A stretch of DNA of 63,976 nt, counting the filler, from Chrysochromulina tobinii (lineage: Eukaryota): NCBI GenBank assembly GCA_001275005.1. It is 9 parts of 9 records of this genome, joined end to end, with 100 filler letters (N's around TTAATTAATTAA, not from the genome) between each part and the next. Parts side by side here need not be neighbours in the genome. Positions count along the whole stretch, not along the records: positions 38,437 to 52,789 come from JWZX01000147.1; 8 more parts are not named here. One strand, given 5' to 3'. Positions 32,781 to 61,100 of the stretch are shown piece by piece. The notes beneath the pieces were generated by a model. The model was not told the DNA's origin and did not search any database. It saw only the letters and a list, made by a program, of their open reading frames with translations. The position numbers and the translations under genes were made by a program. Position 1 is the first letter of the stretch; every line of letters begins with the position of its first letter.

Positions 32781-35700
32781 GTGGCGACGGTGGCGACGAC
32801 GGCGAGGATGAGGCGTGGTTGCTGCCGCGGGCACCATCATACGAGGCGCATGCAGACGGCGGCGAGGGCCTCGGGCTGCATGCAGGCGCTTCGGCGCTCG
32901 TGGTGAGCTCAAACTTCCTCTCGGGCTTCAATGGCATGCAGCAGCGGGCAGCACAGTTGAGCGCTGCACTGGGCAAGCTGGGCTATGCCATCCACTACGT
33001 GGCCGCCGGTCCGCTCAACTCGACGGCGGCGTGCGCGAGCGCGACGCCCGCCGTTATCTGCCACGGCGAGGGCGACACGGACGCCCAGTACGGCGCGTAC
33101 GCGGCCTGGGCCAAGGCGACACGTGCGACGCCTACGCTGGCAGCGGTCGCGTTCACCTCTCTCACCCTCGAGGTGTCGCGCGCGCTGCTGCGGCTGCCGC
33201 GCGCCGCCTTTGGTAAGTCGACTGCATGCCCAACTGATTGCATGCCCAACTGATTGCATGCGCGCCGCCTTTGATAAGTCGACTGCATGCCCAACTGATT
33301 GCATGCCCAACTGATTGCATGCCCAACTGATTGCATGCCCAACTGATTGCATGCCCAACTGATTGCATGCCCAACTGATTGCATGCCCAACTGATTGCAT
33401 GCCCAACTGATTGCATGCGCGCCGCCTTTGGTAAGTCGACTGCCTAACGTGGGGTGCGACCCGCTGGATTGCATGCTGATAACCTCTGATGGCGCCCCTC
33501 ATCAGGTAAGTGGACGGTCCAGGGAGGGTACGACCCTTCCCACCTGCCCAAGGCACATCGATGCCTCCGACTGCTCGGCACGATCGCGGCAGATTTCCCC
33601 ACAGCGCACCTCGTCCTCTTCACCGACGACATCCACTTTGAGCGCACGCGGTACATCCTGCGCCTCGCGGGCAAGGAGGCGCTGTTGCGGGCGCCCGATA
33701 CGACGCGCGTCCTCGCGGGCGCCAAGCGCCTCGAGCTCGCGACGTACGCACGCGCTCGACTCGTTCTCCTCATCTCGGAGCAGGTGGGATTGCCGCTGAT
33801 GGCGTCTCGGATGGCCGTGTGAGCACCGCTGATGGCGTCTCGGATGGCGTCTCGGATGGCCTTTCTGAGTGCGTCTCCTTCTCCTCTCGGCACAGGATGC
33901 GAGCACGCTGCGCCAGGCGATGGGCGCCCGATACGGCGCTCCGGACGCGCCGACGGACGACGCGCCGGCCGACGCAGAGGCGGCAGATGCGCCGCCGGTC
34001 GCGAGCACGACAGAGGCGGCGAGGTCGACGGCGGCGGCTGAAGCGACGCCGCACCTTGGTCTGATGCCCTTCGGCGCCTCGCCACTCCCGCCTTCGGAGG
34101 TGGCGGCCCTCAGTGCGCGCGTGGCCGGCACGATGCTGTACGTGGGCACGTGCCACCCGGTGGCCAAGGCGAGTGTGACGTGGCTGGTGCGGGAGGTGCT
34201 GCCGCGGCTCGAGCGCCGCCTGAAGCGCGCGTCGGCGCTCAGGACGACGCCGCAGCTGCGCCTCGCGGGCACTGGCTGGCTGTCCCTCGCGTCGGAGGCA
34301 CCCTTTGCGCAGTTGGTCGAGTCCGGCACGCTGGTGGTGCTCGGCAAGCTCTCTGTGGCGGCGCTGGCGCAAGAGTATCAGCGCGCCACGCTCTTCATCT
34401 CGCCCCTCCTCAACGCCACCGGGATTGCGACCAAGAACTTTCATGCGATGGCGGCTGGACTGCCGGTGCTCACCACGCCGATGGGAACGGCGGGGCTGCT
34501 GCTGCCGGCCGCGCCGCTCATTGCCTGTTGCACGGGCGAGGACGGCGAGGACGGCGAGGATGGAGAGGATGGCGAGGACGGCGAGGATGAAGAGGATGAC
34601 CATGACGGCGAGGACGGCGAGGACGGCGGGGACGGCGAGGAGGATGTCGCGGTGACGGCGGCGAAGGCGCACGAGCACGGTGAGGCGGAGGAGATCGGTG
34701 GTCGAGCCTCAGCTGCTGCGGCAGGGCCGGCTGCTGCCCCCCTTCAGTGCACGGGCGGCACTTCCATCTTTGGGCCACCTGCCGAGCCGTTTGCGCCCCC
34801 GCCGTCGCTTGCAGAGAGCTGCGCGCTGCAGCCGATGAGGATGGAATGTGCCGCGTGGGAGGCTGCCAAGGCGGCCAGCGGCCTGCCGACGCGCCTGGCC
34901 GGAAGCGCGGTCGAGGCCATGGGAGACGCCAGAGGAGGCGGCGGTGGCGGCATTGTTGGCGGTGGCGGCAGGAGAGGCGGCGGCAGGGGCGGCGGCAGGG
35001 ACGGCAAGCGCGGCGGCAAAAGCCAAGGCGGCGGCGGCGGCAGCGGCGGGAACAAGAGCGCGAAGCCTTCCAAAAGAGGCAACCGCGGCGGCGGGTCAAA
35101 GCACGGCGGTGGTTCGTCAGGTTCGTCAGGTTCGTCAAAGCACGGCGGCGGCAGCGCCACGAGGCAGTTGCTCTTCTCCGTGTCGCGGAGAGGTACGGTG
35201 CCTTCGCCCCACCACCCGTCGTCCCTCCACCCGTCGCTGCATTCGTCGGGGGTGCTGTGGGTGGCCGAGGGCCCCGATGCCTTTGCCGACGCTGCGATCG
35301 ACGCACTGAGCAGCCCCGCCCTCTGGCAGCGCGTCTCGCGCCGCGCGCTGCGCCATCAGCGTATGCTGAGCGCGAGTCGCCAGAGTGCGGCGTTTGGAAG
35401 GCTTCTCGCGTCCGGTGCAGTCGGCGCGAGGCTACCGGCCGAGCGTGCGTGCGTGCTCGTCTGCGACTCGTGCGAAGGCGGCCGCCGCCGGCGGCGGCTG
35501 CGCGCCGTCTTGGGCGCGCTGCTGCGGCTGCGGATCGCGGTGCATATGATCGTGCTTCCCCGCGGCTCGGTGCCACACTCCGAAGCTCGTATGATCGGAT
35601 GGCTGCAGGCTCAAGGGGTCTTCTTCTACGATGGCTCTCCCCAGGATCAGGTGAGCCTCGTTAATGGCCTCTTGATGGCCTTGGTTGCGTCCTGAGTGCA

Positions 35701-38436: not shown

Positions 38437-38949
38437 CGCCGGCTTGATGACGAAGCGCGCCGCGTCGTAGAGGGTGACGGTGCCGGGTGTCCTTTGCTTG
38501 CCACTCTTGTCGGCCCACCCCTCGGGCTTGCATCGCCGACAAATGTGCGAGCACACGCGCTGCAGCTGTGCGCCAGTGATGGCCCGTTTGGCAGTCTCCG
38601 CGATGGTGCAGCCGCCGCGCTGAGCACCGTGCAGGTCGGCAAAGTCCTCGGCGGCCGGCGGCCTGACGTGGACAAAGCTGCTCGCATAAAAACCTTTGCG
38701 CCACTCGTCGATTGTAATGCAGCCATCCGAGTCGAGGTCGAGCTCGCCCATCAGGGTTGCGAAAACCACGTCGTCGTAGCCTTGCTTTTGCAATGCGCTC
38801 TTCAACTCATCGCAAGAGATGGTCTGATCGCTGTCGACGTCGATCTCCTTGAAGATCCTCGTCGGGTCTTGCCACTGGAGCGTCTCCGGCGTGCGCACCT
38901 CGACCCCATCGTCAGGATTTGGCGCCACCTTCGTGACGGAGCCGCCCAT
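38437..38949 (-). CDS. EF-hand pair protein, 3'-partial; possible N-myristoylation
   Basis: DVDSDQTISCDEL and DLDSDGCITIDEW are canonical EF loops; starts MGGSVT. Confidence 0.85.
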
Positions 38950-39276
38950 CCTCGAGTGAAGGAAGGTCCTGTACACTGAACAGCACTGTGCTTGTTCCCA
39001 GTGAAATTAAGAAGCAGGGTTTCGTCAATGGATCTGCGTCGGACGTCGCCGACGTCACGGCCGACATTATGTTGTAATAACCCGTACCGGGGTCGTTCGA
39101 CATTCACAGGTTCTGACCATTTCTGCTTCTGTTCACACACGCTCACTTTCGACTTGGTTTGGGGTCGCCAGATTCACCCGAGGAACTGTGCTTCACATGA
39201 AACGGGGAGCGTTGCACATCGCGCGTGAACCCGTGAAGATCTCATCTGAGTTCCTTTGGCTAATATTTCTACATTT

Positions 39277-42080
39277 TCAGAAGTTGGCGTCGCAGAGCGC
39301 TTCGAGCCAAGGCGCGCTCTCGCCATGACGGATGCCTCGCACCTCGCGCAGCAGCCGTCGTATGAGCACATCCTCGTGCATTTGGAGCGCAAAGTACGCG
39401 GTCCAGCCGTGCCGATCGCCGGGGTGTGTGAAGAACTGGTCGGGTCGCATCGCCGGCGGCGCACCCTCTCCCAACCGAGGCCCACCGGCTCGGCGCACGA
39501 TTTCCTCAAACCACGCGTCGTCCTGAGCGCCACCCTCGCCCGCGTGGACGCTCGCGTTGCGCGCCGCGTCGTCGTGGCGGAGCGCGCCATGCTGGGCGCA
39601 TGCTGTTCGGAGCAGACGGATGTCGTCAGCGACCGTTGGATCCGTCGATGGCGCCGTGCTGGGCGCCCGGGGCGGCGCCTGCCCGGCCGCCTGCCCGGCC
39701 ACCTCGGACCGCCCAGCACGGCGCGTGTGCTTCGTGTGTGCATGCGGAGGCGAGGCCGCCGCACACAGCGCCGCCCGGACACGGTTGCAGCCGGCGGCAC
39801 GGCCGGTGCGCTGAAGGACGCTCGGAGAGCGCGGTCGCGCCGTGAAGACGTTTCCGGCGGCGTCGGTGGGCACCACCCCCGCCAGGGCGGCGCAGCCGGC
39901 GGTGGCACACGAGCGTGCGATGCAGCAGGCGACGCAGCTGCCGGCGCCGTGTCGGGCGCGCGGTGCGTCGAGTCGTCGGCGCCGTGTCGGGCGCGCGGTG
40001 AGCAAGGAGCTTCGTGAAGAAGCGTCGGATGATGGGAAGGGGAAGGCGCCTGCATGCAAGTGCTCACCACGGCGCCATGGCGATGGGAAGAGGTCAACGG
40101 CCGCCGGGCACGGTGCACCTGCTCGGCACGGCGCGCACCTGAAGGCGGGCTCGAAGGCGGCGCACGCGTCCGGGGTGGAGGTGGCGTTCTGGACGGGAAC
40201 CAGCGCAGAGCACAGGACCGGCTGCGCAACGCCCTCCCAATCAAACGCCCGGCGCAAGTCGGCTTCACGCTCGTCGTCGCGCCGTCGTGGGCGCAGCCGT
40301 ACAATCTGCGACACGCGCCCAAGCCGACCGGTCCACGTACCTGTGGGGAGCGCGCGCGCCGTGCTGAGCACTTGCATGCGCACGTGAGGGACTGTGACAC
40401 GCGCCCGAGCCGACCGGTCCACGTACCTGTGGGGAGAGCGAGCGCCGTGCTGAGCACTTGCATGCGCACGCGAGCACTGACACGTGCCCGAGCCGACCGA
40501 CCCGCTTACCTGGAACCGCTGCCCTCACCGCCGTGTCGACAAGCAGCACCTCCGGCGGCAGCATCAGGCCCGTGTCGACCAGCTGCACGTCAAACCGAGC
40601 AAAATGCGAGCGCATCAGGCAATGCGTAGGCATCGACCAGCCGTCCATATCGGGGAACTCTGCTCGGTAGCGCGCGTTGCAATTGCGTGGGCATGCCAGC
40701 CGGACCGGCGTCATCGCTCCGCCGCTCGCGCCGCCGCTTGTTGCGCCGCCGCTTGCTGCGCCGCCGCTTGCGCCGCCGCTTGCGCCGCCGCTTGTTGCGC
40801 CAGCCACGTTCGTCGGCGCCCGCATGGTCTTCAGAACCGGCCAGAGCGCGCGCGGCACGAGCAGCAGCACATCATCCTCACTCACGATCGTCTGCGGGCT
40901 GAGCCTCGCCGCCATTGTCGCCAATCGGCCCCCATCGGCGACCGGTACCTTGAAGACTTGATCGGTGCGCACCTAATGAGGGAGGCAATCATACTGATGA
41001 GCCAGGCAATCAGCCTTCGGCCACCGGTAACTTGGAGACTTGATCGGTGCGCACCTTGAGCATCGCGTCGTAAATGTACGGCGCGCCCTCATCCTCGTGC
41101 TCGGCCCGGCGCGCACCACCACGCTCGGCGCGGCGCGCCTCGTACTGCTCGATGAGCTCGACGCAATCTGCCCAACGGCCAAATTGGGCAGTCGAGGGCA
41201 GCCCGCAACTAATGGGCTCCGGCACCGTGCGCAGGCGCACTCCGAGAGGGCGCAGGCCGGTGAGCGCCGTGCCGAGCAGCTCCGCGTGCGCCGCGGGCGC
41301 CTCCCACGGCCCCGCCGCCTGCCGCTGCTTGGTGGATCGCCAGCTAAAAGACTCGCGCCATTGACTTGGTGGGAAGAGATCCGACGCATCTGTGTAGCGG
41401 TGCGAGCGCGCGGCGGCGCCGTAGGGCGAGTCCTCGGGCCCGGTCGAGAGCACGACGAAGGCGTCGAGGCCCGGCTCGGCGCGCGCGCCGTGGGTGCGCC
41501 CGAGCACATGCTGCTCGATACTCCTCCACACGGTCGGGTGCACGAGACTGCGCGGCATGCCCGCGATGCATACGGCGACGCGCGCTGCCCGAGCCGAGGT
41601 TGGCGCGGGCACGGGCGGCGGCGGTGGCCGTCGCTGATGGCGCTGCTGCACCTGGAGCCACGGGAAGTGCGACGCGTTGCCGATGCGCGGCCGAGGCTGC
41701 CGACGAAAGTGTGGCCGCTCGTGGCTGCCTCGGAGCGGCTCCGGCATCAGGCAGTGCTCTGCGCACGGCGGCGCGAGCAACACGCCGGCCACGCAACCGC
41801 TAGCTGGGTGGGCTCGATGCAGTGGCAGGTGCATCTTCATGCAGCATCGCGACGCGATGGGCGGCGACGCCACGGGCAAATACGGCGCGTTGCACACGGC
41901 CGTCACATACGTCCACGCGAGGCAGCCGAGCGTGGCTGCGCAGAGCTCGCAGCACTCGTCTGCGGTCGACACGGGCTCACACGGGCCAAGTTGCGCGGTT
42001 GGCCGTAGCCAGCTGCCGTCGGGATCGCGCGCCGTCGGCGTCAACCACGAGGCGTTGGATGTGTGCGAACAGGCCTCCAT
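39277..42080 (-). CDS. PAN/apple-like domain + putative glycosyltransferase-like domain + Cys-rich C-terminus
   Basis: Exons 42080-41055, 40972-40510, 40340-39277. TADECCELCAATLGCLAWTY..CCMK (PAN); RVAVCIAG.PR, DAFVVL, QF..W..C, YDAMLKVRTD (GT-like). Confidence 0.65.
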
Positions 42081-45000
42081 GGCATGAAATACATGTTCTC
42101 TTCTGTACGGCCGTTCATGTGTGAACGTTAACACGACACACGTGTAAACCTCAACCTGAAAAACTTTGGATCTAATTTCTTACTGCACATATATCTATGC
42201 ATCTAAGGGATAACCCTGTAGCTCCCTGTATGAATGCACATCATGATGTTGAGCACAGAGGGCTTCTGCAGCTGGAGGTAAAAACTATAGCGGTGGTCGG
42301 CAGGGCGCCGCGGCTCCTCGTGTGCCCTCCACTTCTAAGCCGCGCGCACTGAGATCTTCAGAAGCGCGGCGGCGGCGGCCCAGTCGCCGGCCTGGCCACG
42401 GCGGTGGCTCCCGGCCGAGGCGAGGCGTAACCGCCGTAACCACCCCCCGGGGGTGGTGTGTCCATGCCGCCCGGCGCTGGATACCACGGCGGCTGCGGCG
42501 GCTGCGGCGGCTGCGGCGGCGGCGGCGGCGGCGGCGCGTATCCATGCGAGGCGCGGCCGGCCGCGGAGGCAGAGGCAGTGCACGCGCGAGGCGACTTGGG
42601 AGGGGTGCCCGGGGCGGCGCCCGGGGCGGCGCCCGCCCGAGGCGGTGGCGGCCGTCGCTGCGGCGAGGCGAGAGCGACCTGCCGATCGGCGAGGAGGAGC
42701 GATGCGAGGTGCACGAATGAGGCAGGCAATCAGCATGCAATCAGAGATCATCAGAGCGACCTACCTGGAGTGACTCGAGCTCCTGCGCGAGCTGCCCCAC
42801 CTCATGGAGCGCCACCTCGCGCTGCGAGGTCACTCGCTCCGCCGCGAGCTGCTGCGAGCTCCGCTGCATCTCGGCGTGATCTCGCTCCTCCTTGAGCACC
42901 GCGTACGCCCTCCGGATCTCGGCGAGATCGCGCTTGGCGGCGACGAGCGCCGCCTTGGCGGCCTCCTCTCGCCGCCTCGCCTCGTCGGCTGCCTCCTTGG
43001 CCTGCGCGAGCGCCTGCCCCGCACCCTCCTTCTCCTGTCGTATTTGGGTCGCCTGCCGCTTTTCAGCCTTGAGTCGCTGTGCGGTCGCCTGGTGCGCAGC
43101 CGTCTGTTCCCTGAGCTCCTCGCGCACCTGATGAGGGAGGCGATCAGAGGCCATCAGAGGTGATAAGAGGCGATCAGAGGCGATAAGAGGGCATCAAAGG
43201 TCGAGAGCTTCACACGCACAGCCGCGAGCGCCTTGGCGAGCTTGCGCGACTCGCGATGCGATCCCATGAGCTCATCCGCCTCCGCCTCGGACACGTCCGC
43301 CGGCCGGCCGAGAGCGACGAGCGCCCACCGGTGCAACGCGCGCGCACACCTGTGGGGAGAGCGCGCCGTGGTGAGCACTTGCATGCATACGACGAGCGCC
43401 CGCAGGTGCGACGCGCGCGCGCACCGGTCGCGACGGATCAGAGGCAATCAGAGGCAATTAGAGGACAACTAGAGGCAATTAGAGGCCAATTAGAGGACAA
43501 TTAGATGACAATTAGAGGCAATCCGAGGCAATCAGAGCGCGCGCGCACCGGTCGCGACGGACGCCACAGCGGAGGAGATGTTCGAGACGGGCGGCGCCCG
43601 CAAGCCTTCGGGCCTGCTTGCCAGCGTCGGCATGGGCGAGCACCTGTGAGGGGTTCGTCAACGGCACTCAGAGAGAGGCACGCAATCAGAGAGAGGCATG
43701 CCGAAAGGCGAGCACCTCGCCGCGCTCGAGCGCCGTCTCGGTCATCTCGAGGGCCTTGCGCGCGTGCGCCTCGGCGGCATCCGCGCGCGCGCTCTCGGCG
43801 TCCTTGTCCGTCTTGAGCTTCTCCATCGCCGCGCGGTGCAGCCGCGCGCGCTCGAGCGCGGCTGCTTCCCGAGCGGCGGCGTCCTTGCGATCGGCCTTGA
43901 GCTCGGCGATCTCGCGGAGCAGCGTCGAGCGCTCCTGTGGGGAATGGAGGGGGGGGGCGCTGTGGTGAGCACCTGCATGCAAGGGCAGGGCTCGGCGATC
44001 TCGCGGAGCAGCGTCGAGCGCTCATCACAGCGCGCCGTTGGGGACGTCGCTGCTTCGCGTTGCCTCGAGCGCTCATCACAGCGCACCTTTTGTGACGTCG
44101 CCGCCTCGCGTTGCTTCGCCTTCTCGCGCTCGATGGCCGCCTCGGCGTCGGTCTTGCCCGCCTTGAGCGCCTCGCGCGCCTCGCGCAGGCTGCGTGCCAA
44201 TCCGAGGCAATTAGAGGCAATTAGAGGCAATTAATAGAGGCCATCATCAGAGGCCATCATCAGAGGCCATCATCAGAGGCCATCATCAGAGGCCATCATC
44301 AGAGGCCATCATCAGAGGCCATCAGAGGCCATCAGAGGCCTTCAGAGGCCTTCAGAGGCCTTCAGAGGCACTTGGAGGCACTCACCTGCGTGCCAATCCG
44401 TCGCGCTCGGCCTGCAGCGTCGCCACCGTCTTGCGCAGCGACCCCTCCTCGAGCGTGCCCGACACGGCGCGCTGCGCCTCGGCCTGGGACGTGGCGAGGG
44501 AGGCCGCGAGGGCCGTGCGCTCCTCGCGAAGCGTCGCGAGGCCCTTCTTGAGCGCCTTCTCGCGCTCGGTCGCCGCGTCGCGCTCGTACCGGAGACGTTT
44601 CGATTCCTCGAGCAGCTCCTGCATGCAATGAGGGAGGCCATCAGAGGCGCACTCAGAGGGGCGCGCGCTCAGGCGCACTCAGGCGCACTCAGGCGCGCTC
44701 AGGCGCCTTCAGGCGCGCTCAGGCGCGCTCAGGCGCCTTCAGGCCCTCCATGAGTCGATCGAGACGGAATCGAGATCGAATCGAGATCGAATCGAGATCG
44801 AATCCGAGGGTTTCGTCGCGCACCTTGGCACCGAGCAGCCGGGCGGTTTCGCGCCACGCCCAGAGCACACGGAGGCACGAGCCGCCCCCAAATGGAGAGA
44901 GCCACACGACGCGCTGGAGCTCGAGCAGCCGTGCGGTGCGACGCCCGGCGGCCTCGACGGTCGTGGCCTTTAAGCCGCCGGCGCCGGCGCCGCCACCGTT

Positions 45001-48000
45001 TGCCATCGCGGCGGCAAAGGCGCTGTTGGCGGCGGCGAAGGCGGTGGCGCCCCCGGGCTGAGCGCCGTACTGAGCGCTCACGGCACTCGCGCTCGAGAGC
45101 GTCGTGCTGAGCGCTTGGCGTTCGGGCACCGGCTGCAGCGCGAGCGCCGTGCCGAGCGCGTGGTTCGGCGGCGGCGGCAGCGACGCGCGCGTCGACGGCG
45201 GCGCACGCGGCGGCGGCGAGAGCGAGGGCGAGGTGACGGGCGGCTTGTCGCGCTCGTCGCGGCGCTCCTGTGCCGTGTGGAGGGTGTGGAGGGTGTGGAG
45301 GGTCCGTCGGAAGGGGCAATTGGGCTCCGGCGCTGTGGTGAGCACTCGCATGCAAGGGAAGGTCATCAGTGGCAATCAACGTACCTGGAGGGTGCGTCGG
45401 AAAGGGAAGTTGGGCTCGGGCCCACTCGAGGCGTAATAGACCCATCGACGGAGCGCCTCCCCCGCCACACAGAGCCAGGAGGCGGTGAGGCACGCGTCCA
45501 ACCGGCGCGCCGCCGCGAGCAGCTCCGACTTGCTCAGTTGCTCCTCTAGAGAGGGTACCTCGGCAAGCACCTGATGACGAGGGAGGCCATCGAGGGTGTG
45601 AATTGAGGCCATCATCAGAGGCCATCATCAGAGGCCGATTCAGATACCATCTCCCGAGAGCGCATCTCCCGAGATCGCACTTCCCTGGCCCTCAGCTTAA
45701 GGGAGATCGAGGGCACTCAAGGGAGATCGAAGGAGATCGAAGGAGATAGAGGGAGATCATGGGAGATCAGGGGAGATCGCACCTCCTTGGCATCCCTCAG
45801 CTCGCGCCGTGCCGCGAGCGCCTCCGCCGCCTTGGCCTTCGCGTCCTCCCGAGCGCCCTCCGCCTCCCGCGCCGCCCCCTCGAGCTGCTCGCGGAGTGCG
45901 GCTTCGCGTGCTGCCGCGGCCGCGCGCGTCGCTTCGTGTGCACGATCTCGCTCGAGCTCCTGCGCGGCGCTCGCGGCCTGAGGGCGCTGTGGTGAGCACT
46001 CGCATGCAAGGGCAGGTCATCAGTGGCCATCAACGTACCTGGAGGGTGCGCAGTCGCTCGTGCTCCGCCGCCGCCGCCTCCTCGAGCTCCGCCCGCAAAG
46101 CCGCACGCGCCTCCGCCGCCGTTGCCGCCTCCGCCGCCGCCGCGGACCAACGGTCGCGCATCTCGTCCACCTCGCGCTCGACCGCGCTCAACTCGGCGCT
46201 CAGCGCCGCGCGGACGGCGTCGGCGTCGGCGAGCGCCGAGTTGAGCGCGAGGTTGCCGAGATGGCGCTGCTCGTCGCGCTGGCGGAGCGCCGTACCGAGC
46301 GCCGACTGGAGCCGCTGCGCCTCCATTTGCGTGGCGCCGAGCTGTCGCTGCACCTCCCTCTGCATCGCCTGCAGCGCCGCGTGCTGCTCGAGCTGCTTCT
46401 GAGAGCCCTCCACGAGCGTCATCGAATCGAGCAGCTGGGCTCGCAGCTCCACCTGCAGCCCATCTGCGTGGATCCGAGCCTGCGCCACCTCCACCTCCAC
46501 CTCGCCGAGCGCCGTGCTGAGCACGCGCTGCGACGCCTCGAACGCGCGCACGTGCGCGCTCATCTCGGCGACCAGCTGGGCGCGCGCCGTCTCGGTGCGC
46601 TCCCGTTGGGCGCGCGCCTCGAAGGTGAGCGCCTCCATCGCCTCGTCCGCCGCCGCGCGCGCCGCCTGCGCCGTCTCGAGTGCGCGCGCGCCCGCCTGGA
46701 GTTGATGGCGGAGGTGGCCGAGCTCACCACGGCGCGGCAGCTCGGGGTGATTCTCGAGCCGCTCGAGCGACCTGTGGGGAGGTGAGGGCGCCGTGGTGAG
46801 CACTTGCATGCAGGTAGCTCGGGATGATTCTCGAGCCGCTCGAGCGACCTCCACGCGCGCTTTGCCGTTACGAGCCATCCCTGGCTCGTCATTTGGGTCG
46901 TCGTTTGGTCATGGCCGATTGGTGTGGCCTTGGGCCGCGGCCGATCAGCCGCCGCCGCTGCGCCCGCCGCAGCGCCGAAGCCACCTATCTTTGCGGCGGC
47001 GGGCGGGGCGGCGGGCGGGGCGGCGGGCGGGGCGGGGCCGTCTGCGCTGCTTCTCGCGCTTGCCGCGGGGGTGGGCGTCGTCTTGGGCACCAGGCGTTCC
47101 TCGAGGGCCGCGAGGCCCTCCGCGAGGTCGTCGAGCGCCGAGGCGGCCGCGTACCTAATGAGGAAGGCAATCATCCTAATGAGGGAGGCAATCATGATAA
47201 TGAGGGGGGCCATCGTCCTAATGAGGGGGGCATCCATCCTAATGAGGGAGGCACTCCTCCTAATGAATGCCTCACTCCTCCTAATGAATGCCTCACTCAT
47301 CCTAATGAGTGCGCCACTCAATCCTCCGCGAGGTCATCGAGCGCCGAGCCGGGCGCGTACCCGTCTTCGAGGCGCAGCGCCGCCGCGAGCTCGAGAGCAG
47401 CCGCATGTCGACGCACCTGTGGGGAGGCGATGGCGCCGTAGTGAGCACATGCGTGCTTGGAGAGGGCAGCCGCATGTCGACGCACCGCATGCCCCTGCTC
47501 GGCCGCCGCCTCCTTGGCCACCGCCAGATCGCCCTCGAGCTGCGATCTCGCGGTCTCGAGCTGCGATCTCGAGGCCGCCAGATCGCCCTCGAGCTGCGCC
47601 GCGCGCGCGCGTGCCTCTTCGACCTCGGCGGAGAGCGTGTCGATCGTCTGGTCCGCCACCAACAACGACTCCGCCACCTGATGAGGAAGGCAATCAGAGG
47701 TCATCAGAGAGGTCATCAGAGGTCATCAGAGGTCATCAACAACGACTCCGCCACCTCGGCCGCATCAGTCTCGGTCTTGAGACGCAGCTGCTCTTCGGCC
47801 GCACAGGCGGCCGCCTTGGCCGCCGCGACCTCCTTGGCAACACGCAGCCGCTCACGTAGCGCCGCCCCTTGCGTCTCCTCGGCCCCGATGGCAATCTGCA
47901 CCGGCGCGCGAGAGGGGAGGTGAGCAGCAGTCCAGATCACTCAGCGGTCACTCCGAGGTCACTCCGAGGTCACTCCGAGGTCACTCCGAGGTCACTCCCA

Positions 48001-51000
48001 GGTCACTCCGAGGTCACTCCGAGGTCACTCCGAGGTCACTCCCAGGTCACTCCGAGGTCACTCCGAGGGCACTCCGAGGTCACTCCCAGGTCACTCCGAG
48101 GTCACTCCGAGGGCACTCCGAGGTCACTCCCAGGTCACTCCGAGGTCACTCCGAGGTCACTCCGAGGTCACTCCGAGGTCACTCCGAGGTCACTCCGAGG
48201 TCACTCCGAGGTCACCCCGAGGTCATCAGAGGTCGCGAGCACACCTGCACCGCCGCGAGTGATGTGAGCAGTTGGTCGAGCGAGGGAGGGAGCGCCTCGT
48301 GCAGCGGCGGCAGCGGCGAGGTATGCGTGAGCGGCACGAGGCTCGCGTGCACCTGATGAGGGGGGCAATCATGAGTGTCATCAGATGCGGGAGGCTGACG
48401 AGGGAGGCTGATGAGGGAGGCAATCAGGCACGAGGCTCGCGTGCACCGTCCCAAGCAGCTCGCCGATCTCGAATAATTGGACTAATTGGGTCTCCTGCTC
48501 GAGCTCGAGCAGAGATTGCTGGAAGTGCCACTCGGACTCGGCCGCGCGCGCGAGCTCCATCTGCGCCTGCGCCTGCGCCTGCGCCAGCTGCGCCTCCGCC
48601 TGCGCCCTCGACAGCACCTCCGCCGCCGTCTCATACGAGAGGGGTTCTCCCCCGTGCATGGGAGCGTCATAGAGCGTCTCGTCGAGCAAGTGGAGCCCCT
48701 CCTCCCCCGCCTCGGCATGGGGCGACGCATGCAAGTGCCCACCACGGCGCGCGCGAGAGGGGAGCCCCTCCTCCCCCGCCTCGGCATGGGGCGACAGCGG
48801 CGGCTCGCGGTGCTCGCGACGGCGCGAGGCCAATGGGGGGGGGCGCCGTACCGGGCGCGTGCTGCGGCGACGGCGCGGGCGGCGGATGCGAAGGCAGCAG
48901 CTGCGGCAGCGGCGAGGGACCGTGCGTCGGGAGCTGTGCGGGTGCCCAGGACGGCGCCACGTGCGAGTCGCGCCGCAGCTGCGTGGCGCCCAGTACGGCG
49001 CCCTCGAGGCGCCTCTGCCGTTCGCGCTCCTCCATTTGAGTCGCCCTCGCCATGCGCGCCTCCGCCTTCGCGCGCTGCTCGGCCAACGCCTGGAGCTGCC
49101 CTTGGACGCTCGTGTGGAGCTGCCCTTGGACGCTCGTGTGGAACTGCCCTTGGACGGAGCGAGAGTGCACCTGGCCGGCGCGAGATTGCATCTGGCGCTC
49201 GTCCGCTGAGCGAGATTGCATCTGGCGCTCGTCCGCTGAGGCATCGGCGCGTGCGCCCATCAGCTGCGCCTGCGCACATTCAGCGTCCCGGCGGGCCGCC
49301 ACCGCCGAGTCCGACGCCGACGCTCGGAAGTCTCTCGGAAGTCTCTCGGAAGTCTCTCGGAAGTCTCTCGGAAGTCTCTCGGAAGTCTCTCGGAAGTCCG
49401 ACGCCGACGCCGAGAGAGTCTGAAGTCGCTCGGAAGTCTCTCGGAAGCGGGCCAGCGCCGCCTCCGTCTCCGGCGCACCCGCCGATGCGAAGTACGGGGG
49501 GGCGGAGGCGTGCGGCAGCGTCGAGTTGGGCGGAGGCGCGACCACCGAGAACTGTGCCGAAAGCGAGCACGCGGCACGGGGGGCGCCCGCCACGACGCCC
49601 GGCGCACCGCCCGCCACGACGCCCGGCGCGACGCCCTGTGAACGGTCCGTTGGCGAGGCCAGGTGTGAACGGCCCCCTGGCGAGGGCCGGTGTGAACGTG
49701 TGCCCGAGCTGCGAGGCGGCGACATGAACTCGTCGGTGGGCGTCGTGGTGGGCGCGGCGCTGCCTGCTGGCGGTTCCGGGGGTGAGGTGTTCGGGGGGGA
49801 GGTGTTCGGGTAGGTGGGTTGGCGTGGCTCATAGCACTGAGGCGCGGGCTGTGGCGAAGGGGGGAGCGCATCGACTTCATGCGGGACGCCGAGCCGCGCC
49901 TCTCTCCCCCTCATCGGCCCGCCGCCTCCTCCCACCCCAACGGCAGCCGCGCTACCCGCCAGCACGGCGCCAGCGGAGCCGCCCGCCACGATGCCCGCGC
50001 CCGAGGCCGCCAAGTTGCGCTCGACACAGCGCTCGGGCCCGCGCGCTGGCGACGAGGAGTTGACGAACCCCCGTTCGGGGTGGCAGGCAGGGACAATGCG
50101 AGCGCCCGCCGTGCTGCGCGTGGCCGACGGCGCCGTGCCGGGCGCGGTGCGCGCCGTGCCGGGCGCGGCGGCGCCCGCCTCCGCGCCAGTCGCGCGCATG
50201 GGGCGGCTCGGCTTCGGTTGTCGCGCCGCCGCCGGGTCGACGCACTGCGGGCGCTCCCAGTGGACCTCGGCCGCGTACCCGCCGCTCGTGCCGCAGCCGC
50301 CGCCCACTCCGATGACGGAGGGGGGCGCCCAGTTGGGCGCCCACGACGGCGCGGGCGCCAGGGCCGCTCCGCGCGCCAACGGCAGCCCATTCACAGGCTG
50401 ATTCACAGGCTGGTTCACCATATGGGCCGGCGCCGAGTTGAGCGCCGGCGCGAGTGAATGGAGAGTGGGCGGCTGGGCGAACCGGGGCGCCGAGTTGAGC
50501 GCCATCGAGCGTGCCGCGCTGGGCGCCGTCGTGGGCGCATCCTCCGGCGGCGAAGGCGGCGGCGACATGGGATTCGAACCGCACGGCTCGAACGGCGCTA
50601 CTTCCATGCCGTGCAGTAGTTCGGGCTTCCGATCGGGCGCTGTCGTGGGCTTCCGATCGGGCGCTGTCGTGGGCTTCCGATCGGGCGCTGTCGTGGGCTT
50701 CCGATCGAGCCACGCCTCCGACCAGCGTTCCACAGCTTGGCCCAGCAGAGCCTCGCGACGCTCCTCCGCGCGCTCCGCGAGGCGCCCACGACAGCGCTCC
50801 GCGTGCTCGGCGAGTCGGCGCTTCTCGGCCTGCCGCGCACCTGTGGGGAGAGGGGCGTGGTCGCGCCGTGGTGAGCACTTGCATGCGGCGCGCGGCGTAC
50901 GCGTGCTCGGCCGACCGCGCCGTCGTGGGCGACGCACCGTGCTTGAGACGTTCCGCCTCCGCCGCGGATGTCTGCGTGTCGTAAAGTTGGGGCGGCGGCG

Positions 51001-51765
51001 CCCGCATGAGCTCTTCACAGCCCTCGGCTGCGCCGTGCATCGCCGCTTCCGCCGCGATCACGACGCCGTAGACGGCCGCAAAGAGATCCGAATCGTTCAT
51101 CGCGCCGTGGTGAGCACTTGCATGCGCAAAGAGATCCGAATCGTTCATCGCGCCGTGGTGAGCACTTGCATGCGCAAAGAGATCCGAATCGTCCCTCGCC
51201 GCCGCCGCCGCCTCGGACTGCGGACTTGGCGGCCGGTCGAGGGTCACCCCCTGTGGGAAATGGAGCAAGGGCAGCACCCTGCAGGCGGGCACGCTGCAGG
51301 CGCCCACGGCAGCGCTGCAGACGCCCGCAGACGCGGCCGGCTCCGCGGATGACGACGACCCCGCGTGTGCATCGAGGGCGTTGGTCCTTGACGAACCTTG
51401 ACGAACCTTGACGGACCTTGTCGGCGACCCCGCGTGTGCATCGAGGGCGTGAGGGAAATGGGAGGAGGCGTCGGCATGCGATGTGGCGGCGGGCGCGCTG
51501 TGGTGGGCATGCGCGCTGTGATGGGCATGCGCGCTGTGGTGGGCATGGGAGGAGGTGTCGGCATGAGATGTGGCGGCGGGCAGAGCGGCGGCGCTGTGGT
51601 GGGCATACGCGCTGTGGTGGACATGCGCGCTGTGGTGGGCATGAGCGCTGTGGTGGGCATGCGCGCTGTGGCGAGCATGGGCGCTGCGCCATAGTTCGAG
51701 CTCTGCCTGCGCGGCTGCCAAGCTGTCCCTGGCAGTGAGCAACTCCTGTGGCTGCTGCTGCCGCA

Positions 51766-51800
<35 letters not shown>

Positions 51801-52481
51801 TGCTGCTGCTGCTGCTGCTGCTGGACAGCGCCTGCGAGCGGTGCCGCCGTGGTGGGCATGTGCGCCGTGGTGGGCATGTGCGCCGTGGTGGGCATGTGCG
51901 CCGTGGTGGGCATGGGAGTACTCCGCGGCCGCGACGGCGTCGCGCCGCTCAGCCACGCCGCACGCGCCATGGCCGCCGGACCGAGAGGATCTGGACTCGA
52001 CACGTGGTTGCCTAATTTGGTATCCAAACTCGTTCCAACGACGGGGGCCGTTGCAACGGAGGTAGCTGCCACGTGGCAGCCTGACGTAACGGAGGTAGCT
52101 GCCACGTGGCAGCCGGACGTAACGGAGGTAGCTGCCACGTGGCAGCCTGACTTAGCTGGCAGCGCTGGCGGCAGCACGGGCGGCGATGGCGAGGAGAAGT
52201 GTGGCTCGGCCCGGGCGAGGACGACGCGCGCTGCATCGAGCAACGCCGCGGCGCTTGAGAGCGAAGGTGACTCGCGCGCCGGCGCGCCGCCGTGCTCGGC
52301 GGCGTGCACGTGGGCAAACGCCTGTGCGAATGCATGCACGTCGGGCACGCCGCTGCTGCCGGTGCCGCCGCCGCGCGCACGGCCGCCGCGCTGCTGCCGC
52401 CGCTGCTGCCGTTGATGGCGCTCCTCGTCCTGCGCTCCTCGTCCTGGGGAGGAGAGGGCGCCGTAGTGAGCACTTGCATGC
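40052..52481. repeat. Dispersed cassette A family GCATGCAAGTGCTCACCACGGCGC, about 14 copies, both orientations
   Basis: Copies near 40052(+), 40357, 40443, 43364, 43957, 45329, 45983, 46787, 47433, 48727(+), 50863, 51101, 51149, 52457; all in this one contig. Confidence 0.9.
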
Positions 52482-52737
52482 TGCTGCCGTTGATGGCGCT
52501 CCTCGTCCTGCGCCTGAAGCCAGCGCTGCTGCTGCTCGAGCTGCTGAAGCTGCTGCTGCTGTTGTAGCTGCTGCTGAAGCTGCTGCTGCTCGTACGCGTG
52601 CTCGTCCTCCTCCTCACCCTTGAAGAGATTCGATCTCATCGGCTGAGATGCGATCTCCTCCTCACCCTCGGGGAGCCGATGGCGGCGCCGTGAGCTCAGG
52701 CTGGGAGGTGGCGGAGGCGGCAGGTGCGGCGGTAGGT

Positions 52738-52789
<52 letters not shown>
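42358..52789 (-). CDS. Very large low-complexity/coiled-coil protein, 5'-partial, about 18 exons
   Basis: Predicted introns 50841-50937, 48353-48446, 47896-48244, 47678-47754, 47417-47485, 47155-47360, 46772-46848, 45978-46038, 45571-45782, 45268-45384, 44619-44823, 44190-44385, 43935-44086, 43644-43715, 43350-43548, 43128-43219, 42679-42764, all GT-AG and phase-compatible. One unexplained frame change near the G-run at 48835-48843. Confidence 0.75.
47937..48230 (-). repeat. Intronic 11-mer array (AGTGACCTCGG)n
   Basis: About 26 units of ccgaggtcact on +, inside intron 47896-48244. Confidence 0.9.
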
Positions 52790-56365: not shown

Positions 56366-57847
56366 ATGTGGTCACGGCCGAGTGAGACAGCCGAGGACGT
56401 TCCTCGGTATCGCGATTCGCCACCGCGCCAGCAGCCTCACGACGACGACGGTTACCGCCGGGATGAATATCACCACACCGAAGGGCCCTCAACCTCGTCT
56501 CACCGCGCGTACGAGGGCGACAGGAGCAGAGGCGACAGGAGCAGAGGCGACAGCAGCCGAGCGCACAGCAGCCGAGCGCACAGCAGCCGTAACAGCAAGC
56601 ATGCGATGAGGAGCATGCAGAAGAAGACGGAGACGCTGAAGCGCGAGATTATCAAACTCGATGGCGAGTTGCAAGAGCTCGAGTCCAAGCGCAAGAAGGC
56701 AAAGCACGCCGCTCATAAAGCAGCGGAGGAGGTAAAGGTCGAGTTCTTGCGCAGCGCCGCCGTCATCCAGAGGCAGCTGGATGCCGACGCCGACGAAACG
56801 GAGCAGATAAAGTCTGCAGTCGCGCGTGACGAGCGTGAGCTCGAGGAGCTGCGCCGAAGGCTGCGTGAGCAGAACGAGCAGCAAGCGGAGCACCGCGCGC
56901 AGCTCGAGCGAGCGACGCAGGACAAGCTCGCAGATCTGCAGGGTGAAATAAGGGTGCTACGAGACTGGAGGCCACCGCAAAGTTCGAGTGTGCCCACCTC
57001 CAGCAAACCCGCGTTCGACCCAGGCTCCTCACATGTGAGGAGCCTCGATGAGCAACCCGAGCACGGTGTGAACACAGTGCTCGGGTTGCTCATCAACCTC
57101 GACCGACGTGCCGACCGGCTTGCCAAGATACGCGCGCTGAGGCTGCCCTTGGAGTGGGAGCGGCTTGAGGCGGTCGATGGACGCACGCTTTCGTGGGCGA
57201 AGCTTGGCCAGGATCAAGTTTTGCATCCGGACGCCCTCACCGAAGCGCAGTGGGCCGAGGCGCATTCGCTGCCTACGATTTGCCGCGAGACGGGCTCATT
57301 TTCACCGCATCTCACCTATGGCGCGGTCGGCTGCGCGCTCTCGCACCGCAAAGCATGGCAAGCCCTGCTCGATAGCCCGCCGTACAGAGAGTGCGCTCTG
57401 ATCATGGAGGACGACTTGTCAGGGGTCGCGCGTCAATTTGATTTGCAGCTCGGTCGGCTCCTGAGCGAGCTGCCGAACACATGGCACATTGTCTTCCTGG
57501 GGTACCACGAGTCGTCGGGGAGGCTGCTCCCCGTCAAGCAATCGCCACGCCATTTCGAGCAGCCTCCTGCAATGTGCTTAACCGGCTTGTACGCGTATCT
57601 GCTCCACCGACGGGGAGCACAGGCACTGCTGCAGCCGCAAGCCGTCTTCCCACTTCGTCATCAGGTGGATGTCGCGGTGAGCCTTTACCCTTGGCCTGCG
57701 GGCAGCCGCTTCATCCTCGACCCGCAGGCGGTGCTCGCGGCATGCCCTAAATCAGAGGACGGCGCGTGCGACACTGACGTGCAATCCCTCGGCAAGCCCA
57801 CGGAGAGGGCGCACGCGGCGATCCCACAGTCGATGATGCTCATGTGA
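56366..57847 (+). CDS. Glycosyltransferase family 25 protein with N-terminal coiled coil
   Basis: LINLDRRADRL, LEAVDG, GAVGCALSH..W, LIMEDD, WHIVFLG, AYLLHRRGAQALL. Confidence 0.9.
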   Translation: MWSRPSETAEDVPRYRDSPPRQQPHDDDGYRRDEYHHTEGPSTSSHRAYEGDRSRGDRSRGDSSRAHSSRAHSSRNSKHAMRSMQKKTETLKREIIKLDGELQELESKRKKAKHAAHKAAEEVKVEFLRSAAVIQRQLDADADETEQIKSAVARDERELEELRRRLREQNEQQAEHRAQLERATQDKLADLQGEIRVLRDWRPPQSSSVPTSSKPAFDPGSSHVRSLDEQPEHGVNTVLGLLINLDRRADRLAKIRALRLPLEWERLEAVDGRTLSWAKLGQDQVLHPDALTEAQWAEAHSLPTICRETGSFSPHLTYGAVGCALSHRKAWQALLDSPPYRECALIMEDDLSGVARQFDLQLGRLLSELPNTWHIVFLGYHESSGRLLPVKQSPRHFEQPPAMCLTGLYAYLLHRRGAQALLQPQAVFPLRHQVDVAVSLYPWPAGSRFILDPQAVLAACPKSEDGACDTDVQSLGKPTERAHAAIPQSMMLM

Positions 57848-58172: not shown

Positions 58173-61100
58173 ATGATTCGGCCAGTCAACTCGCCGCTGG
58201 CCTTCCTGCGGGACGCGCTCCAAACGGTTGCGCTGCAGGGTCGCCAAGGCGTCCGCGTCGACGCGCTTTGGCCGTTGCTGCCGAGCGTTGGTGACGTGCG
58301 TCCTGCAGGCGACCAGCACGTGCGCCGATGGCTGTGGACGCAGCTCAAGGCCCATGAAGAGATGAGTGTCAGCCTCGCAGGGCACACGGTAGAGCAGATC
58401 AGGGCGTTCACGCTCGAAGAGGCTGGTGGAGTGCTCATCACTGCGAGCGAGAGGGCGCGCATGTGGATGTATGGGGTGCGAGACGGCTCCGATGAGAGCC
58501 TGAATCCATCCGAGGACATGATGAAGGTGATCGAGGAGCTCGCGCGGGCGGGGCCCCGCGGCATGCTACAAAACCAGCTAACAAAGGCGGTGAAGATCCC
58601 GGCGAACAAGCTCGCGTACACGCTCAGCGTGCTCGAGATGGACCACGTCATCGAGCGCGAGGCCGTGTGGATCAGCACGGCGAGCCTGCGCGCCGACCCC
58701 GCCGCCGCCACCATCCCCCCGCCGCCGCCAAGCTTCAACAAGTACGTCAACCCGATCCTGAAGACCAACTTGGTCACGTTGCTTGCGCTGCGCCCGGATA
58801 TCCCGATGGCGCCGCTCACTGCGTACAAGGGTCACTCGCATGGAGATGGGGGCTTGCTCGAGCGCATGGTGCAGCTGCTGGCTGCCTCGCCTCATGGACT
58901 GCTCCCGTTCTTCAAGCTGCGCATCGACCTGGGCATCGCGACGCGCGAGGACAAGGGGGTATGGAACCGGCTCAAGGAGCGCGCCCTTCAAGACGGACTC
59001 ATCGAAGAGGTCAGCTTCACAGTCGGAGGGGCCAGCTTCACAGTCGGAGGCGCAGCCGCTGGCGCAGCAGCTGGCGCGCTCGGTGGTGCGGCTGGGGCAG
59101 TTCCCGATGCGAGTGGTTACCGGCCACGCGCAGTGCGCCGTGGCATCCGGCTGGTGCGCCGCACGCGGCCCGACAGTGTCGACGGCAGCGGCGAGGCCAG
59201 CAGTAGCAGCAGCGCGCCACCGGCGCTGCTCGACCACGCCCCGTTGCTTCAGATGCAGAGCCACCTCGAGCTCGCCCGATCTGCCGGGATGCTCGGCGTG
59301 AGCTTTAAAGAGAAGCTGCTGCTCCACCCGAAGCACGTGACGAAGCGCATCGTCGACCTCGTCGATGCCCACGGCGTCTTACGCCGTTCAGAGCAGCTCG
59401 GACGTACCAAGGCCTTCCGCCTCTTTGCGCTTGGGACCGCGCCTGCTGGCGGTGCAGCCGGCGCGGTGGGCGGTGGCAAGCGCTCCGGCATGACGAGGCT
59501 CGTGAGCGACCAAGGGCGCACGCTGCAGCAGCAGCAGCGGCGCCAGTGGCTGCTCGACCTGGTGACTGCCGAGGGCGTCGTCGCCACGGAGACTCTCCGA
59601 TCCTTTCTGCAGCACAAGCAGAACGCCGCGGCAGCGGCAGCCGAGGCGGCCGCGGCGGCCGAGGCGGTCGAGGCGGTCGAGGCGGCCGAGACGGCCGAGG
59701 CGGGTGCGGGCAGCAGCAGCAGCGTTGGCATGCTCGGGCCGCTCGGAGGGCCACTCTTAGGGCCGCTCGCAGGGCCGATCGCGCCGCTCACGCCTCACCC
59801 ACCGCCGCCTCGGCCGCCGCCGCCTCGGCCGCCGCCGCCTCGGCCGCCGGCGAGTATCATCGACCGAAAGACAGTGCTGCGCATGACGGATGAGATGCTC
59901 TCAGAGGGCCTTCTGACCACACTCATCGTCGACAACCCTCTCGCACAGGGGCAGGCTGCCTCGGGAGCGGCGCCCTCTGCCAAGCCCACTATGGTGGGCG
60001 ATCGATCGAAGCTCGTACTGCTTGCGATGCCGGGCGTCACAACCGATGGGCCAGAGGTCGCCCGGCTACTCCAAGCGATCAGTGCCGCGGGCAGCTGGAA
60101 GGTCTTCACGACGCGCTCCATTGCGGCTCGTGTGCCCGAGAGCCAAGCCATCCGTCACAAGGCACGGCCGCTCCAGATCGCCGGACAGCTCGAGCGGAGC
60201 TCGGAGCAGCAAGGGCGCTTCCAGGGGGGGCATGCCCTCGCCCTTGCGCACGTCGGAGGCGGCGACGGCGGCGGCGCGGCGGGCATTGGTGAGACAGCGG
60301 AGCGCGGTCGCGGTTCTGGGCGCGGGCGCGGGCGCGGCCTCCAAGTCTCAGCAGAGGGTCGCCTGATTGGTAGCTTGGGCCGCGGCAAGGGCATCAAGCG
60401 CGAGCGGGACCCACGTACCGACTCGGCCGTTACAGACTCGGCCGTTGCCTCTGCGGGGGCGATGCACGAATTGGCAGGTGGCGGTGGCAGCGTCACCGGC
60501 CCTGGCGCTCACAACAGCGCTGGCGTAGCGACGGGTGCCGGCGGCTCACTGTTCGACGGGAGCGCTGTTGTGAGCGCCCAATCAGCATGCAATCAGAGAC
60601 AATCAGGCGGCTCACAACTGTTCGACGGGAGCGGCACCGTTCTGCCTGCGACCTTTGACTTCCCGTCTGATGGGCACGATCTCGACGGCATCGGCCAGCT
60701 GCAGCTTCGGTTTGGGTACGTGTGATTGCATCGGATGGCGTCTGATTGCGCCCCTCATCAGCTTCGGTTTGGGTACGTGCCCGGGCGCGCGTGGCGAGTG
60801 TCTCTGATTGCATGCTAATTGCCCCCCTCATCAGGTACGTGCCAGGGCGCGCGTGGCGTGCGGAGCGCCTGCATGGCATCGTGCTCGACATGGCGCGCGC
60901 CTCTCTTGCCGATCGGGCGGGGGATGCCGAGGCGGCGACGGCGGTGGCCTGTTCCAAGCTGCCTGGTGGCGCTGTTGGGCTGTGGGGAGAGCACGAGAGG
61001 CCTGTCCCCAGCGCTGGTGCGCCGACTGCCGGCGACGTGATGGCAACGTCGGCGGAGATGGCGACCTACGCCGCGCCGCCGCCGCCAAGGGTAACGACGG

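What the first reader, a model, noticed from the sequence alone, without database searches (positions are those of the whole stretch)
51077..51192. Sense cassette A without an acceptor tail, inserted twice and translated (HASAHHGAMN)
A 20-nt target (ACGATTCGGATCTCTTTGCG) occurs three times, separated by two truncated cassettes lacking the CCCCACAG tail. The 48-nt units stay in frame: DSDLFA-HASAHHGAMN-DSDLFA-HASAHHGAMN-DSDLFA. This looks like a failed intron.
Basis: seen in the sequence. Interest (0 to 1): 0.7.

Follow-up and report, generated by a model that had tools for sequence, protein, structure and literature searches.

The report
Intron fragment stranded inside an exon
In a freshwater haptophyte alga, two copies of a short piece of the genome's common intron-end sequence sit between copies of their landing site inside a coding exon and are present in the RNA, so they likely add 32 amino acids to the protein, and they are likely a misfire of the same copy-and-fill process that seems to have made many of this alga's introns.

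Summary
On the minus strand, 51077-51192 is target-cassette-target-cassette-target (20+28 nt), in frame with a stop-free exon. RNA contigs from two runs hold both cassettes. One runs from the cassette through the spliced neighbouring intron, and no GT/GC..AG register can remove the repeat. The host is a Chrysochromulina parva-like haptophyte. 'Inserted twice' is probably wrong: the units are identical, and another population shows one unit (assembly collapse not excluded). One insertion plus one tandem duplication fits better. The cassette is the branch-point part of a motif found 14 times in the window, 11 of them between direct duplications of local sequence. Where the duplicate starts with GT and the filler ends in AG, an intron results, of any length (2 of 10 are multiples of 3). 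Where it cannot be spliced, the unit is always a multiple of 3 (8 of 8, hand-classed). This suggests a splice-blind insertion process filtered by selection. No empty site was found, and translation is inferred. The scan had already noted this intron class elsewhere in this genome (e1-2577349); the exonic misfires are what is added here.

The parts
51173..51192 (-). Target copy next to the upstream exon flank (20 nt; 27 nt to 51199 if two mismatches are allowed)
51145..51172 (-). Tail-less cassette, first copy (28 nt; holds the CTCAC branch-point-like core, no acceptor tail)
51125..51144 (-). Middle target copy
51097..51124 (-). Tail-less cassette, second copy, identical to the first; likely a tandem duplication of the 48-nt unit
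   Evidence: (one-unit contig in X15)
51077..51096 (-). Target copy next to the downstream exon flank
50938..52789 (-). Host exon (open to the contig end) of a low-complexity gene with no Pfam match; one stop-free frame
   Evidence: RNA pieces over 50938-51154, 51158-51414 and 51254-51569
50841..50937 (-). Neighbouring 97-nt GT..AG intron ending in the full cassette with CCCCACAG; spliced; its cassette is the longest exact match (27 nt) to the exonic one
   Evidence: (joint in X1, X4, X12)
51356..51450 (-). Second exonic duplication-plus-filler event (26-nt duplication, antisense filler of another repeat family, 69-nt unit), covered unspliced by RNA contigs
   Evidence: records 5, 11, 27
52402..52513 (-). 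Duplication (34 nt) with a cassette that has an AG tail but no GT in the duplicate; 78-nt unit, in frame; splicing status unknown
52607..52668 (-). Duplication (14 nt) with a third filler family; 48-nt unit, in frame
48692..48795 (-). Antisense cassette between 35-nt duplications; 69-nt unit
46772..46848 (-). Intron-type event: GT-starting copy of the next exon plus full cassette (77 nt); splicing predicted, no joint among the rows shown
47417..47485 (-). Intron-type event with full cassette (69 nt); splicing predicted
43350..43424 (-). Intron-type event with full cassette, the 3' part of a longer intron; RNA contigs stop at its acceptor
   Evidence: records 10, 19, 27
40341..40509 (-). Two tandem intron-type events with full cassette (86 and 83 nt) in the next gene; one RNA contig covers part of this unspliced
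   Evidence: record 16

Best explanation
This is likely the footprint of one repair-type insertion that duplicated 20-27 bases of a coding exon and copied in a fragment of the genome's common intron 3'-end motif, likely followed by a tandem duplication of the whole 48-base unit; the repeat is present in RNA and has no splice sites, and is predicted to be translated as 32 extra residues. Shown: the anatomy, the presence of both units in RNA, the lack of a splice register, the open frame, and the same duplicate-plus-filler anatomy at many nearby sites. Inferred: a staggered break or template switch is mended with microhomology (2-4 nt at each junction). The flanking bases get copied twice and the filler is templated from an existing cassette, possibly the one in the intron 240 nt away. 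The process does not look at splice signals. When the duplicate begins at a GT and the filler brings branch point and AG, splicing restores the exon exactly and an intron is born. When the filler is truncated or antisense, or the duplicate has no donor, the event survives only if its length is a multiple of three in a tolerant, low-complexity protein region, as here.
For:: 78-nt contigs at 51077-51154 in X1 and X4. One search shows these need two or more cassettes (48 of 48 31-mers; 38 with one, 0 with none). Their depth over the flank is 1.5 and 1.7, against 1.79 expected for two copies. X4 record 25 is spliced at 50841-50937 and runs unbranched into the cassette; X12 record 11 joins upstream flank, target and cassette; no GT/GC..AG register removes 48 or 96 nt, and the frame is stop-free and joins the next exon in its only open frame; 11 of 14 motif copies (9 of 12 without the two in question) lie between direct repeats scoring 20 or more, against 5.1% of 2842 random positions; 8 of 8 unspliceable events are 3n (7 of 7 in the host gene), against 2 of 10 GT..AG events (Fisher p=0.001, hand-classed); of 24 mechanically found GT..AG self-duplicated stretches, 11 end in the shared filler tails, and 4 of those 11 are 3n; in another strain the neighbouring intron starts with a cleaner copy of the next exon (ARQA..ARQA); the nearest intron's cassette is the longest exact match among the 12 other copies. 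PMC5730883 (passages): end-joining of staggered breaks gives tandem duplications, sometimes with in-cis templated inserts.
Against: No empty allele or cassette-free orthologue was found, so 'insertion' rests on anatomy alone. The RNA data are assembled contigs at depth 2-7. The same kind of library shows unspliced pieces over predicted introns (records 2 and 16), so pre-mRNA or DNA contributes. The upstream flank is not covered in X1 and X4. The one-unit contig in X15 could be an assembler collapse. X12 record 8 stops exactly at the target's first base, which could mark a second form there. The bare count of GT..AG self-duplications (24) is no higher than controls with other dinucleotides (8 to 49); the signal is the shared filler tails, not the count. 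The 3n sets were classed by hand. Ordinary end-joining does not explain why a few motif families recur genome-wide as filler. No peptide evidence and no enzyme were identified.
Confidence: 0.65

Rival explanations
1. The cassette is a short non-autonomous mobile element moved by target-primed reverse transcription (SINE-like, or copied from excised intron RNA). This gives variable-length target duplications and variable 5' ends; this copy would be an internally primed, truncated one.
For: Duplication lengths vary from about 14 to 40 nt and the 5' ends of the fillers vary while 7 of 14 copies share the same 3' tail. Motif depth in X15 is 317-1741 against 3-12 in neighbouring bins, so copies are very numerous. 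A longer shared version with its own GT occurs twice in the host gene.
Against: This copy and at least two others lack the 3' tail that such a mechanism inserts first. There is no poly(A) and no Rfam match at gathering score. At least four unrelated filler families, including arrays of 10-16-mers, show the same duplication footprint. No autonomous partner could be searched for.
Confidence: 0.2
2. Two independent insertions of the same tail-less element into the same 20-nt target.
For: The T-C-T-C-T layout is what two rounds of insertion with target duplication would give.
Against: The units are identical over all 48 nt, including both junctions and the two bases that differ from the upstream target copy, whereas other copies differ in core and ends. 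A one-unit contig exists in X15. Other repeats in the same gene vary in unit number between strains (record 8).
Confidence: 0.05
3. The repeat lies in an intron or is removed by non-canonical or alternative splicing in most mature mRNA, and the RNA contigs reflect pre-mRNA or DNA.
For: Unspliced pieces over predicted introns occur in these libraries. X12 record 8 ends at the target boundary. The cassette holds a branch-point-like CTCAC (recalled consensus yUnAy).
Against: No splice register exists. A spliced contig continues unbranched into the cassette in X4, and no joint skipping the repeat was listed for the 3 RNA runs (4 rows hidden). The frame is stop-free and unit lengths are 3n.
Confidence: 0.07
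4. The motif is simply a strongly selected 3' splice signal, and the exonic match arose by ordinary local slippage or gene conversion with no general insertion process.
For: The window is full of tandem repeats, and self-duplicated stretches are common with any dinucleotide ends. The best donor match is the adjacent intron.
Against: Selection for a splice signal does not put a copy of the next exon's start at the intron's 5' end, nor place antisense motif copies between 35-nt direct repeats.
Confidence: 0.05

Closest known systems
Introners that carry the 3' splice site and take the 5' site from the target duplication (Symbiodinium; Polarella glacialis classes 4/5 and 6/8/10; Aureococcus) - 10.1101/2020.10.14.339549, PMC9860276
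   Same: The inserted sequence supplies branch point and acceptor, the duplicated target supplies the donor, and splicing restores the exon. Some families add codons to the protein (Aureococcus, 12 bp).
   Different: Those have fixed 4- or 8-nt duplications (3-9 bp in general) and often terminal inverted repeats, and copies are alike end to end. Here duplications run 14-40 nt and vary, about half of each intron is site-specific, filler ends vary, and several filler families share the footprint. The copy in question is not spliced at all.
[quoted passage not shown]
   Same: Filler flanked by direct repeats of variable length, short junction microhomology and a possible in-cis template.
   Different: Known fillers are one-off sequences (local or organellar). 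Here the same few motifs recur at very high copy number and bring a ready-made acceptor.
Intron gain by tandem genomic duplication of an AGGT-containing exon segment - PMC3443670
   Same: The new intron begins with a copy of the following exon, and imprecise events add coding sequence.
   Different: In that model both splice sites come from the duplicate and there is no foreign filler.
Chrysochromulina sp. introner family 5 (Tara MAG) - PMC9860276 Fig. 2C
   Same: Same genus; intron creation that borrows a splice site from the target.
   Different: It has a 4-bp duplication, carries the 5' site and borrows the 3' site, the reverse of this case.

Membership tests
Introner (DNA-transposon type) | Many introns alike over their whole length | tested here: not met
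   Only the 24-45 nt 3' part is shared; the 5' part copies each site's own exon
Introner (DNA-transposon type) | Short target duplication of fixed length (3-9 bp) | tested here: not met
   14-40 nt and variable; 20-27 nt at this site
Introner (DNA-transposon type) | Terminal inverted repeats | tested here: inconclusive
   None seen at cassette ends by inspection or among the 25 of 390 inverted pairs shown; many introner families also lack them (PMC9860276)
Introner (any type) | The inserted copy is spliced out | tested here: not met
   Not met for 51077-51192; met for the sister copy at 50841-50937 in 3 of 3 RNA runs
Introner (any type) | Presence/absence polymorphism or an empty orthologous site | tested here: inconclusive
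   No empty site in 4 of 4 contigs, 4 runs or the 2 homologous proteins found; neither protein spans the site
Break-repair duplication with templated insert | Variable-length direct repeat flanking a filler copied from elsewhere | tested here: met
Break-repair duplication with templated insert | Microhomology at both junctions with the template | tested here: inconclusive
   2 nt (5') and 4 nt (3') with the neighbouring intron copy under the 27-nt reading; one site only, no genome-wide test
Break-repair duplication with templated insert | Dependence on polymerase theta or cNHEJ enzymes | not testable with these tools
Non-LTR retroelement / SINE | Constant 3' end with A-rich or repeat tail | tested here: not met
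   This copy has no tail; 3' ends vary among the 14 copies
Non-LTR retroelement / SINE | Derived from a structured RNA, or an autonomous partner with a shared 3' end | tested here: inconclusive
   Rfam gave 2 weak hits, both far below gathering score; a partner could not be searched
Tandem genomic duplication intron gain | Both splice sites come from the duplicated exon segment, no filler | tested here: not met
   The acceptor comes from shared filler tails in 11 of 24 stretches; none at this site

The most novel reading that the evidence does not exclude
Freshwater Chrysochromulina runs a genome-wide, splice-blind insertion process that copies a handful of intron-end and minisatellite motifs into new sites between 14-40-nt target duplications. 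It yields clean new introns where the duplicate supplies a donor and new in-frame peptide elsewhere: one mechanism for both intron gain and protein expansion, invisible to introner screens that need whole-intron similarity. This locus is one of its exonic misfires.
Probability: 0.45. Interest if true: 0.72.

Novelty: new variant of a known kind. Interest (0 to 1): 0.45.

Why it matters
The locus itself is minor: a predicted 32-residue insert in a low-complexity protein with no known family. Its value is as a control. Exonic, tail-less and antisense copies with the same duplication footprint as the spliced ones suggest the process inserts without regard to splice signals and that selection sorts the products (3n if unspliceable, any length if spliceable). 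If that holds genome-wide, it gives a testable route of intron gain that differs from fixed-footprint introners. It would also explain why C. tobinii and C. parva, which were in the survey list of PMC9860276, were not seen among its introner-positive rows in the part of the supplement held. Practically, the motif will put recurring false or real peptides (HASAHHGA, MQVLTTA, CKCSPRR) into gene models of this genus.

Tried and rejected
No own genome is held, and the long contigs behind L002-L004 could not be searched, so no genome-wide count was possible. Searches for an empty site or outgroup orthologue found none: three word-index protein searches and one full HMMER search returned only P0001 and P0002. 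Both start at or after the site; P0002 begins MYDSDLFA, which suggests it also carries a cassette. The motif had no match in prokaryotic genomes and one match in viral contigs. Pfam found 0 families for the three host-gene ORFs, and Rfam had nothing at gathering score. The second read lay (39500-47860) showed one clean joint, for a different intron (43128-43219, 3 of 4 runs). No joint was listed for the nine other cassette copies there (24 rows hidden, low depth, duplicates blur joints); this is absence of cover, not evidence. The mechanical GT..AG duplication count was not enriched over control dinucleotides. The idea that reverse transcription stops at the lariat branch was dropped because cassettes extend about 12 nt upstream of the presumed branch A. 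The E. huxleyi genome paper is not held; its reported 10-11-bp intronic repeats are recalled only. Look-ups of earlier scan notes by sequence and by relatives found nothing.

Full report
Setting. The window is nine contigs joined by N-linkers, and the finding lies in the contig 38437-52789. No whole genome is held. A dihydrouridine synthase encoded on another contig of the window falls in a 90%-identity cluster with a Chrysochromulina parva protein, so the source is taken to be a C. parva-like freshwater haptophyte (inference across contigs). The host gene runs on the minus strand and encodes a low-complexity protein; 0 Pfam families were found for the 3 host ORFs given.

Observation. 51077-51192 reads, on the minus strand, T-C-T-C-T with T 20 nt and C 28 nt, and the two 48-nt units are identical. 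C contains a 24-nt motif found 14 times in the window (0.01 expected). Seven of the 14 continue into a CCCCACAG tail, two into a shorter AG tail, and five, including these two, do not. The reported peptide lies in the only frame without a stop over 50938-52789 (0 against 8 and 4). After removal of the 97-nt intron 50841-50937, that frame joins the only open frame of the next exon. Four of four metagenome contigs with T have three copies; they are near-identical to the window and are not independent.

Is it spliced? Eighteen runs hold part of 50700-51500, 14 on record as RNA; four were laid on 49700-52700. The neighbouring intron, which ends in the full cassette, is spliced in 3 of 3 RNA runs and shows no joint in X15 (kind not on record). 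For the repeat, X1 and X4 each have a 78-nt contig at 51077-51154. All 48 of its 31-mers exist only if two or more cassettes are present (38 with one, 0 with none). Its depth over the adjoining contig is 6.7/4.4 and 7.15/4.2, near the 1.79 expected for two. X4 record 25 is spliced at the neighbouring intron and runs unbranched into the cassette. X12 record 11 joins upstream flank, target and 15 nt of cassette. No register that removes 48 or 96 nt has GT/GC..AG ends. Against: these are contigs at depth 2-7; the upstream flank is uncovered in X1 and X4; 4 joint rows were hidden; unspliced pieces cover predicted introns (records 2, 16); and X12 record 8 ends exactly at the target's first base, which may mark a variant or empty form that I could not resolve.

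Once or twice? X15 has a 190-nt contig that skips one 48-nt unit and carries strain differences; an assembler collapse of the loop is not excluded. Independently, the two units share both junctions and the two bases by which they differ from the upstream target under a 27-nt reading, while other copies differ in core and ends. Other repeats in this gene vary in unit number between strains (record 8; P0001). One insertion and a later tandem duplication is the simpler account.

The wider pattern. Eleven of the 14 motif copies (9 of 12 without these two) lie between direct repeats of local sequence scoring 20 or more, against 5.1% of 2842 random positions. A scan of the window listed 43 duplication-plus-filler events. 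At least four filler families show the same footprint: this motif, a CCTCATCAG-ending family, and two further repeat families. In ten hand-picked events the duplicate begins at GT and the filler ends in AG just before the second copy, so splicing would restore the exon exactly; 2 of these 10 are multiples of 3. In eight hand-picked events with no such ends (tail-less, antisense or donor-less), 8 of 8 are multiples of 3 (Fisher p=0.001). Seven of the eight are in the host gene. The eighth (40052-40075) rests on a 9-nt repeat in a gene of uncertain frame. Left out were events nested inside introns, events whose donor lies in the filler, and events with no recognised filler or unknown context; several of these are not 3n. 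A mechanical check found 24 GT..AG self-duplicated stretches, not more than controls with other dinucleotides (8-49). Eleven of the 24 end in the shared tails and 4 of those 11 are 3n. In another strain the neighbouring intron starts with a cleaner copy of the next exon (ARQA before and after). Splicing was directly seen for only two introns (50841-50937; 43128-43219 in 3 of 4 runs); the rest are predicted.

Mechanism. Variable duplication length, variable filler ends on both sides, both orientations and several filler families argue against a transposase with a fixed footprint. They fit repair synthesis at staggered breaks or template switching with microhomology (PMC5730883, passages: tandem duplications from protruding ends, sometimes with in-cis templated inserts). 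At this site the longest exact match among the 12 other copies is the cassette of the intron 240 nt away (27 nt, reaching into both junctions), which is suggestive for one site only. Target-primed reverse transcription is the main rival: it explains variable duplications and the reuse of one motif, but not tail-less copies. The enzyme is unknown. The direction of change is inferred, because no empty site was found.

Comparison with what is known. It works like introners that carry the acceptor and borrow the donor (10.1101/2020.10.14.339549, first of four parts read; PMC9860276, passages and section 7), but fails whole-length similarity and the fixed short duplication, so I do not file it as one. 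It shares flanking repeats with repair-type intron gain and the copied exon start with tandem-duplication gain (PMC3443670, passages). In the PMC9860276 spreadsheet (searched; cut when stored; the SI Appendix PDF could not be read and may bear on this), C. tobinii and C. parva appear only in the list of genomes surveyed, and an 8-nt piece of the motif has 0 hits. Eight literature searches (listings seen) and passages of PMC12130899, PMC12480563, PMC4580454, PMC8469720 and PMC11282704 gave no description of this footprint in haptophytes; subscription papers were not searched. It agrees with the intron side and gave me the lead to the dinoflagellate paper; I did not check its counts.

Verdict. 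The feature is real, present in RNA and very likely coding; it is one insertion plus a duplication rather than two insertions. Alone it is a small indel in an orphan protein. As an exonic by-product it strengthens the case for a splice-blind duplicate-and-fill process behind many introns of this alga. New variant of a known kind; interest 0.45.

Noticed in passing
window 48353-48446, 47678-47754, 40973-41054, 60773-60834, 33431-33505, 19223-19296: A second filler family ending in CCTCAT(C/T)AG forms GT..AG stretches that also begin with a copy of the next exon; more common in the window than the cassette studied.
   Followed up: partly
window 45330-45396 and 45984-46050 (- strand): Two introns of the same gene share 12 nt of upstream exon, their GT donor and about 55 nt including the cassette, suggesting one was copied from the other or that a longer master version with its own donor exists; RNA contigs of other loci match this longer form.
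   Followed up: no
window 44190-44400 (- strand): Reverse arrangement: the filler array supplies the GT donor and the 15-nt duplicate supplies the AG acceptor.
   Followed up: no
window 19292-19408, 33199-33443, 43413-43561, 49308-49410, 35095-35148: Arrays of 9-16-nt units sit between 15-29-nt direct repeats of unique sequence, as if the minisatellites were synthesised at the insertion site.
   Followed up: no
window 47868-48285: About 38 head-to-tail copies of an 11-nt unit inside a predicted intron of the host gene.
   Followed up: no
L006 (G001) 1-1560: A record classed as viral carries a 504-codon open frame with a P-loop motif that looks like a phage primase/helicase (recalled, not scanned), with a filler array and a full cassette at its end; perhaps phage-like DNA resident in a haptophyte genome, or a chimeric contig.
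   Followed up: partly
window 50970-51096, X12 record 8 and P0002: A freshwater population has a 12-nt in-frame duplication (EGCE twice) just downstream of the finding and fewer DRKPTTAP repeats in the next exon; the gene tolerates frequent in-frame length change.
   Followed up: partly
window 52402-52513: Cassette with an AG tail whose duplicate offers only GA or GC as donor; a precise 78-nt GA..AG removal is possible on paper, RNA gave no answer.
   Followed up: partly
window 28188-29330, 56366-57847, 22131-23177, 41010-42080: Ordinary genes on the window's contigs: dihydrouridine synthase, glycosyltransferase family 25, a cyclic-nucleotide-binding protein and a weak PAN-domain match.
   Followed up: no
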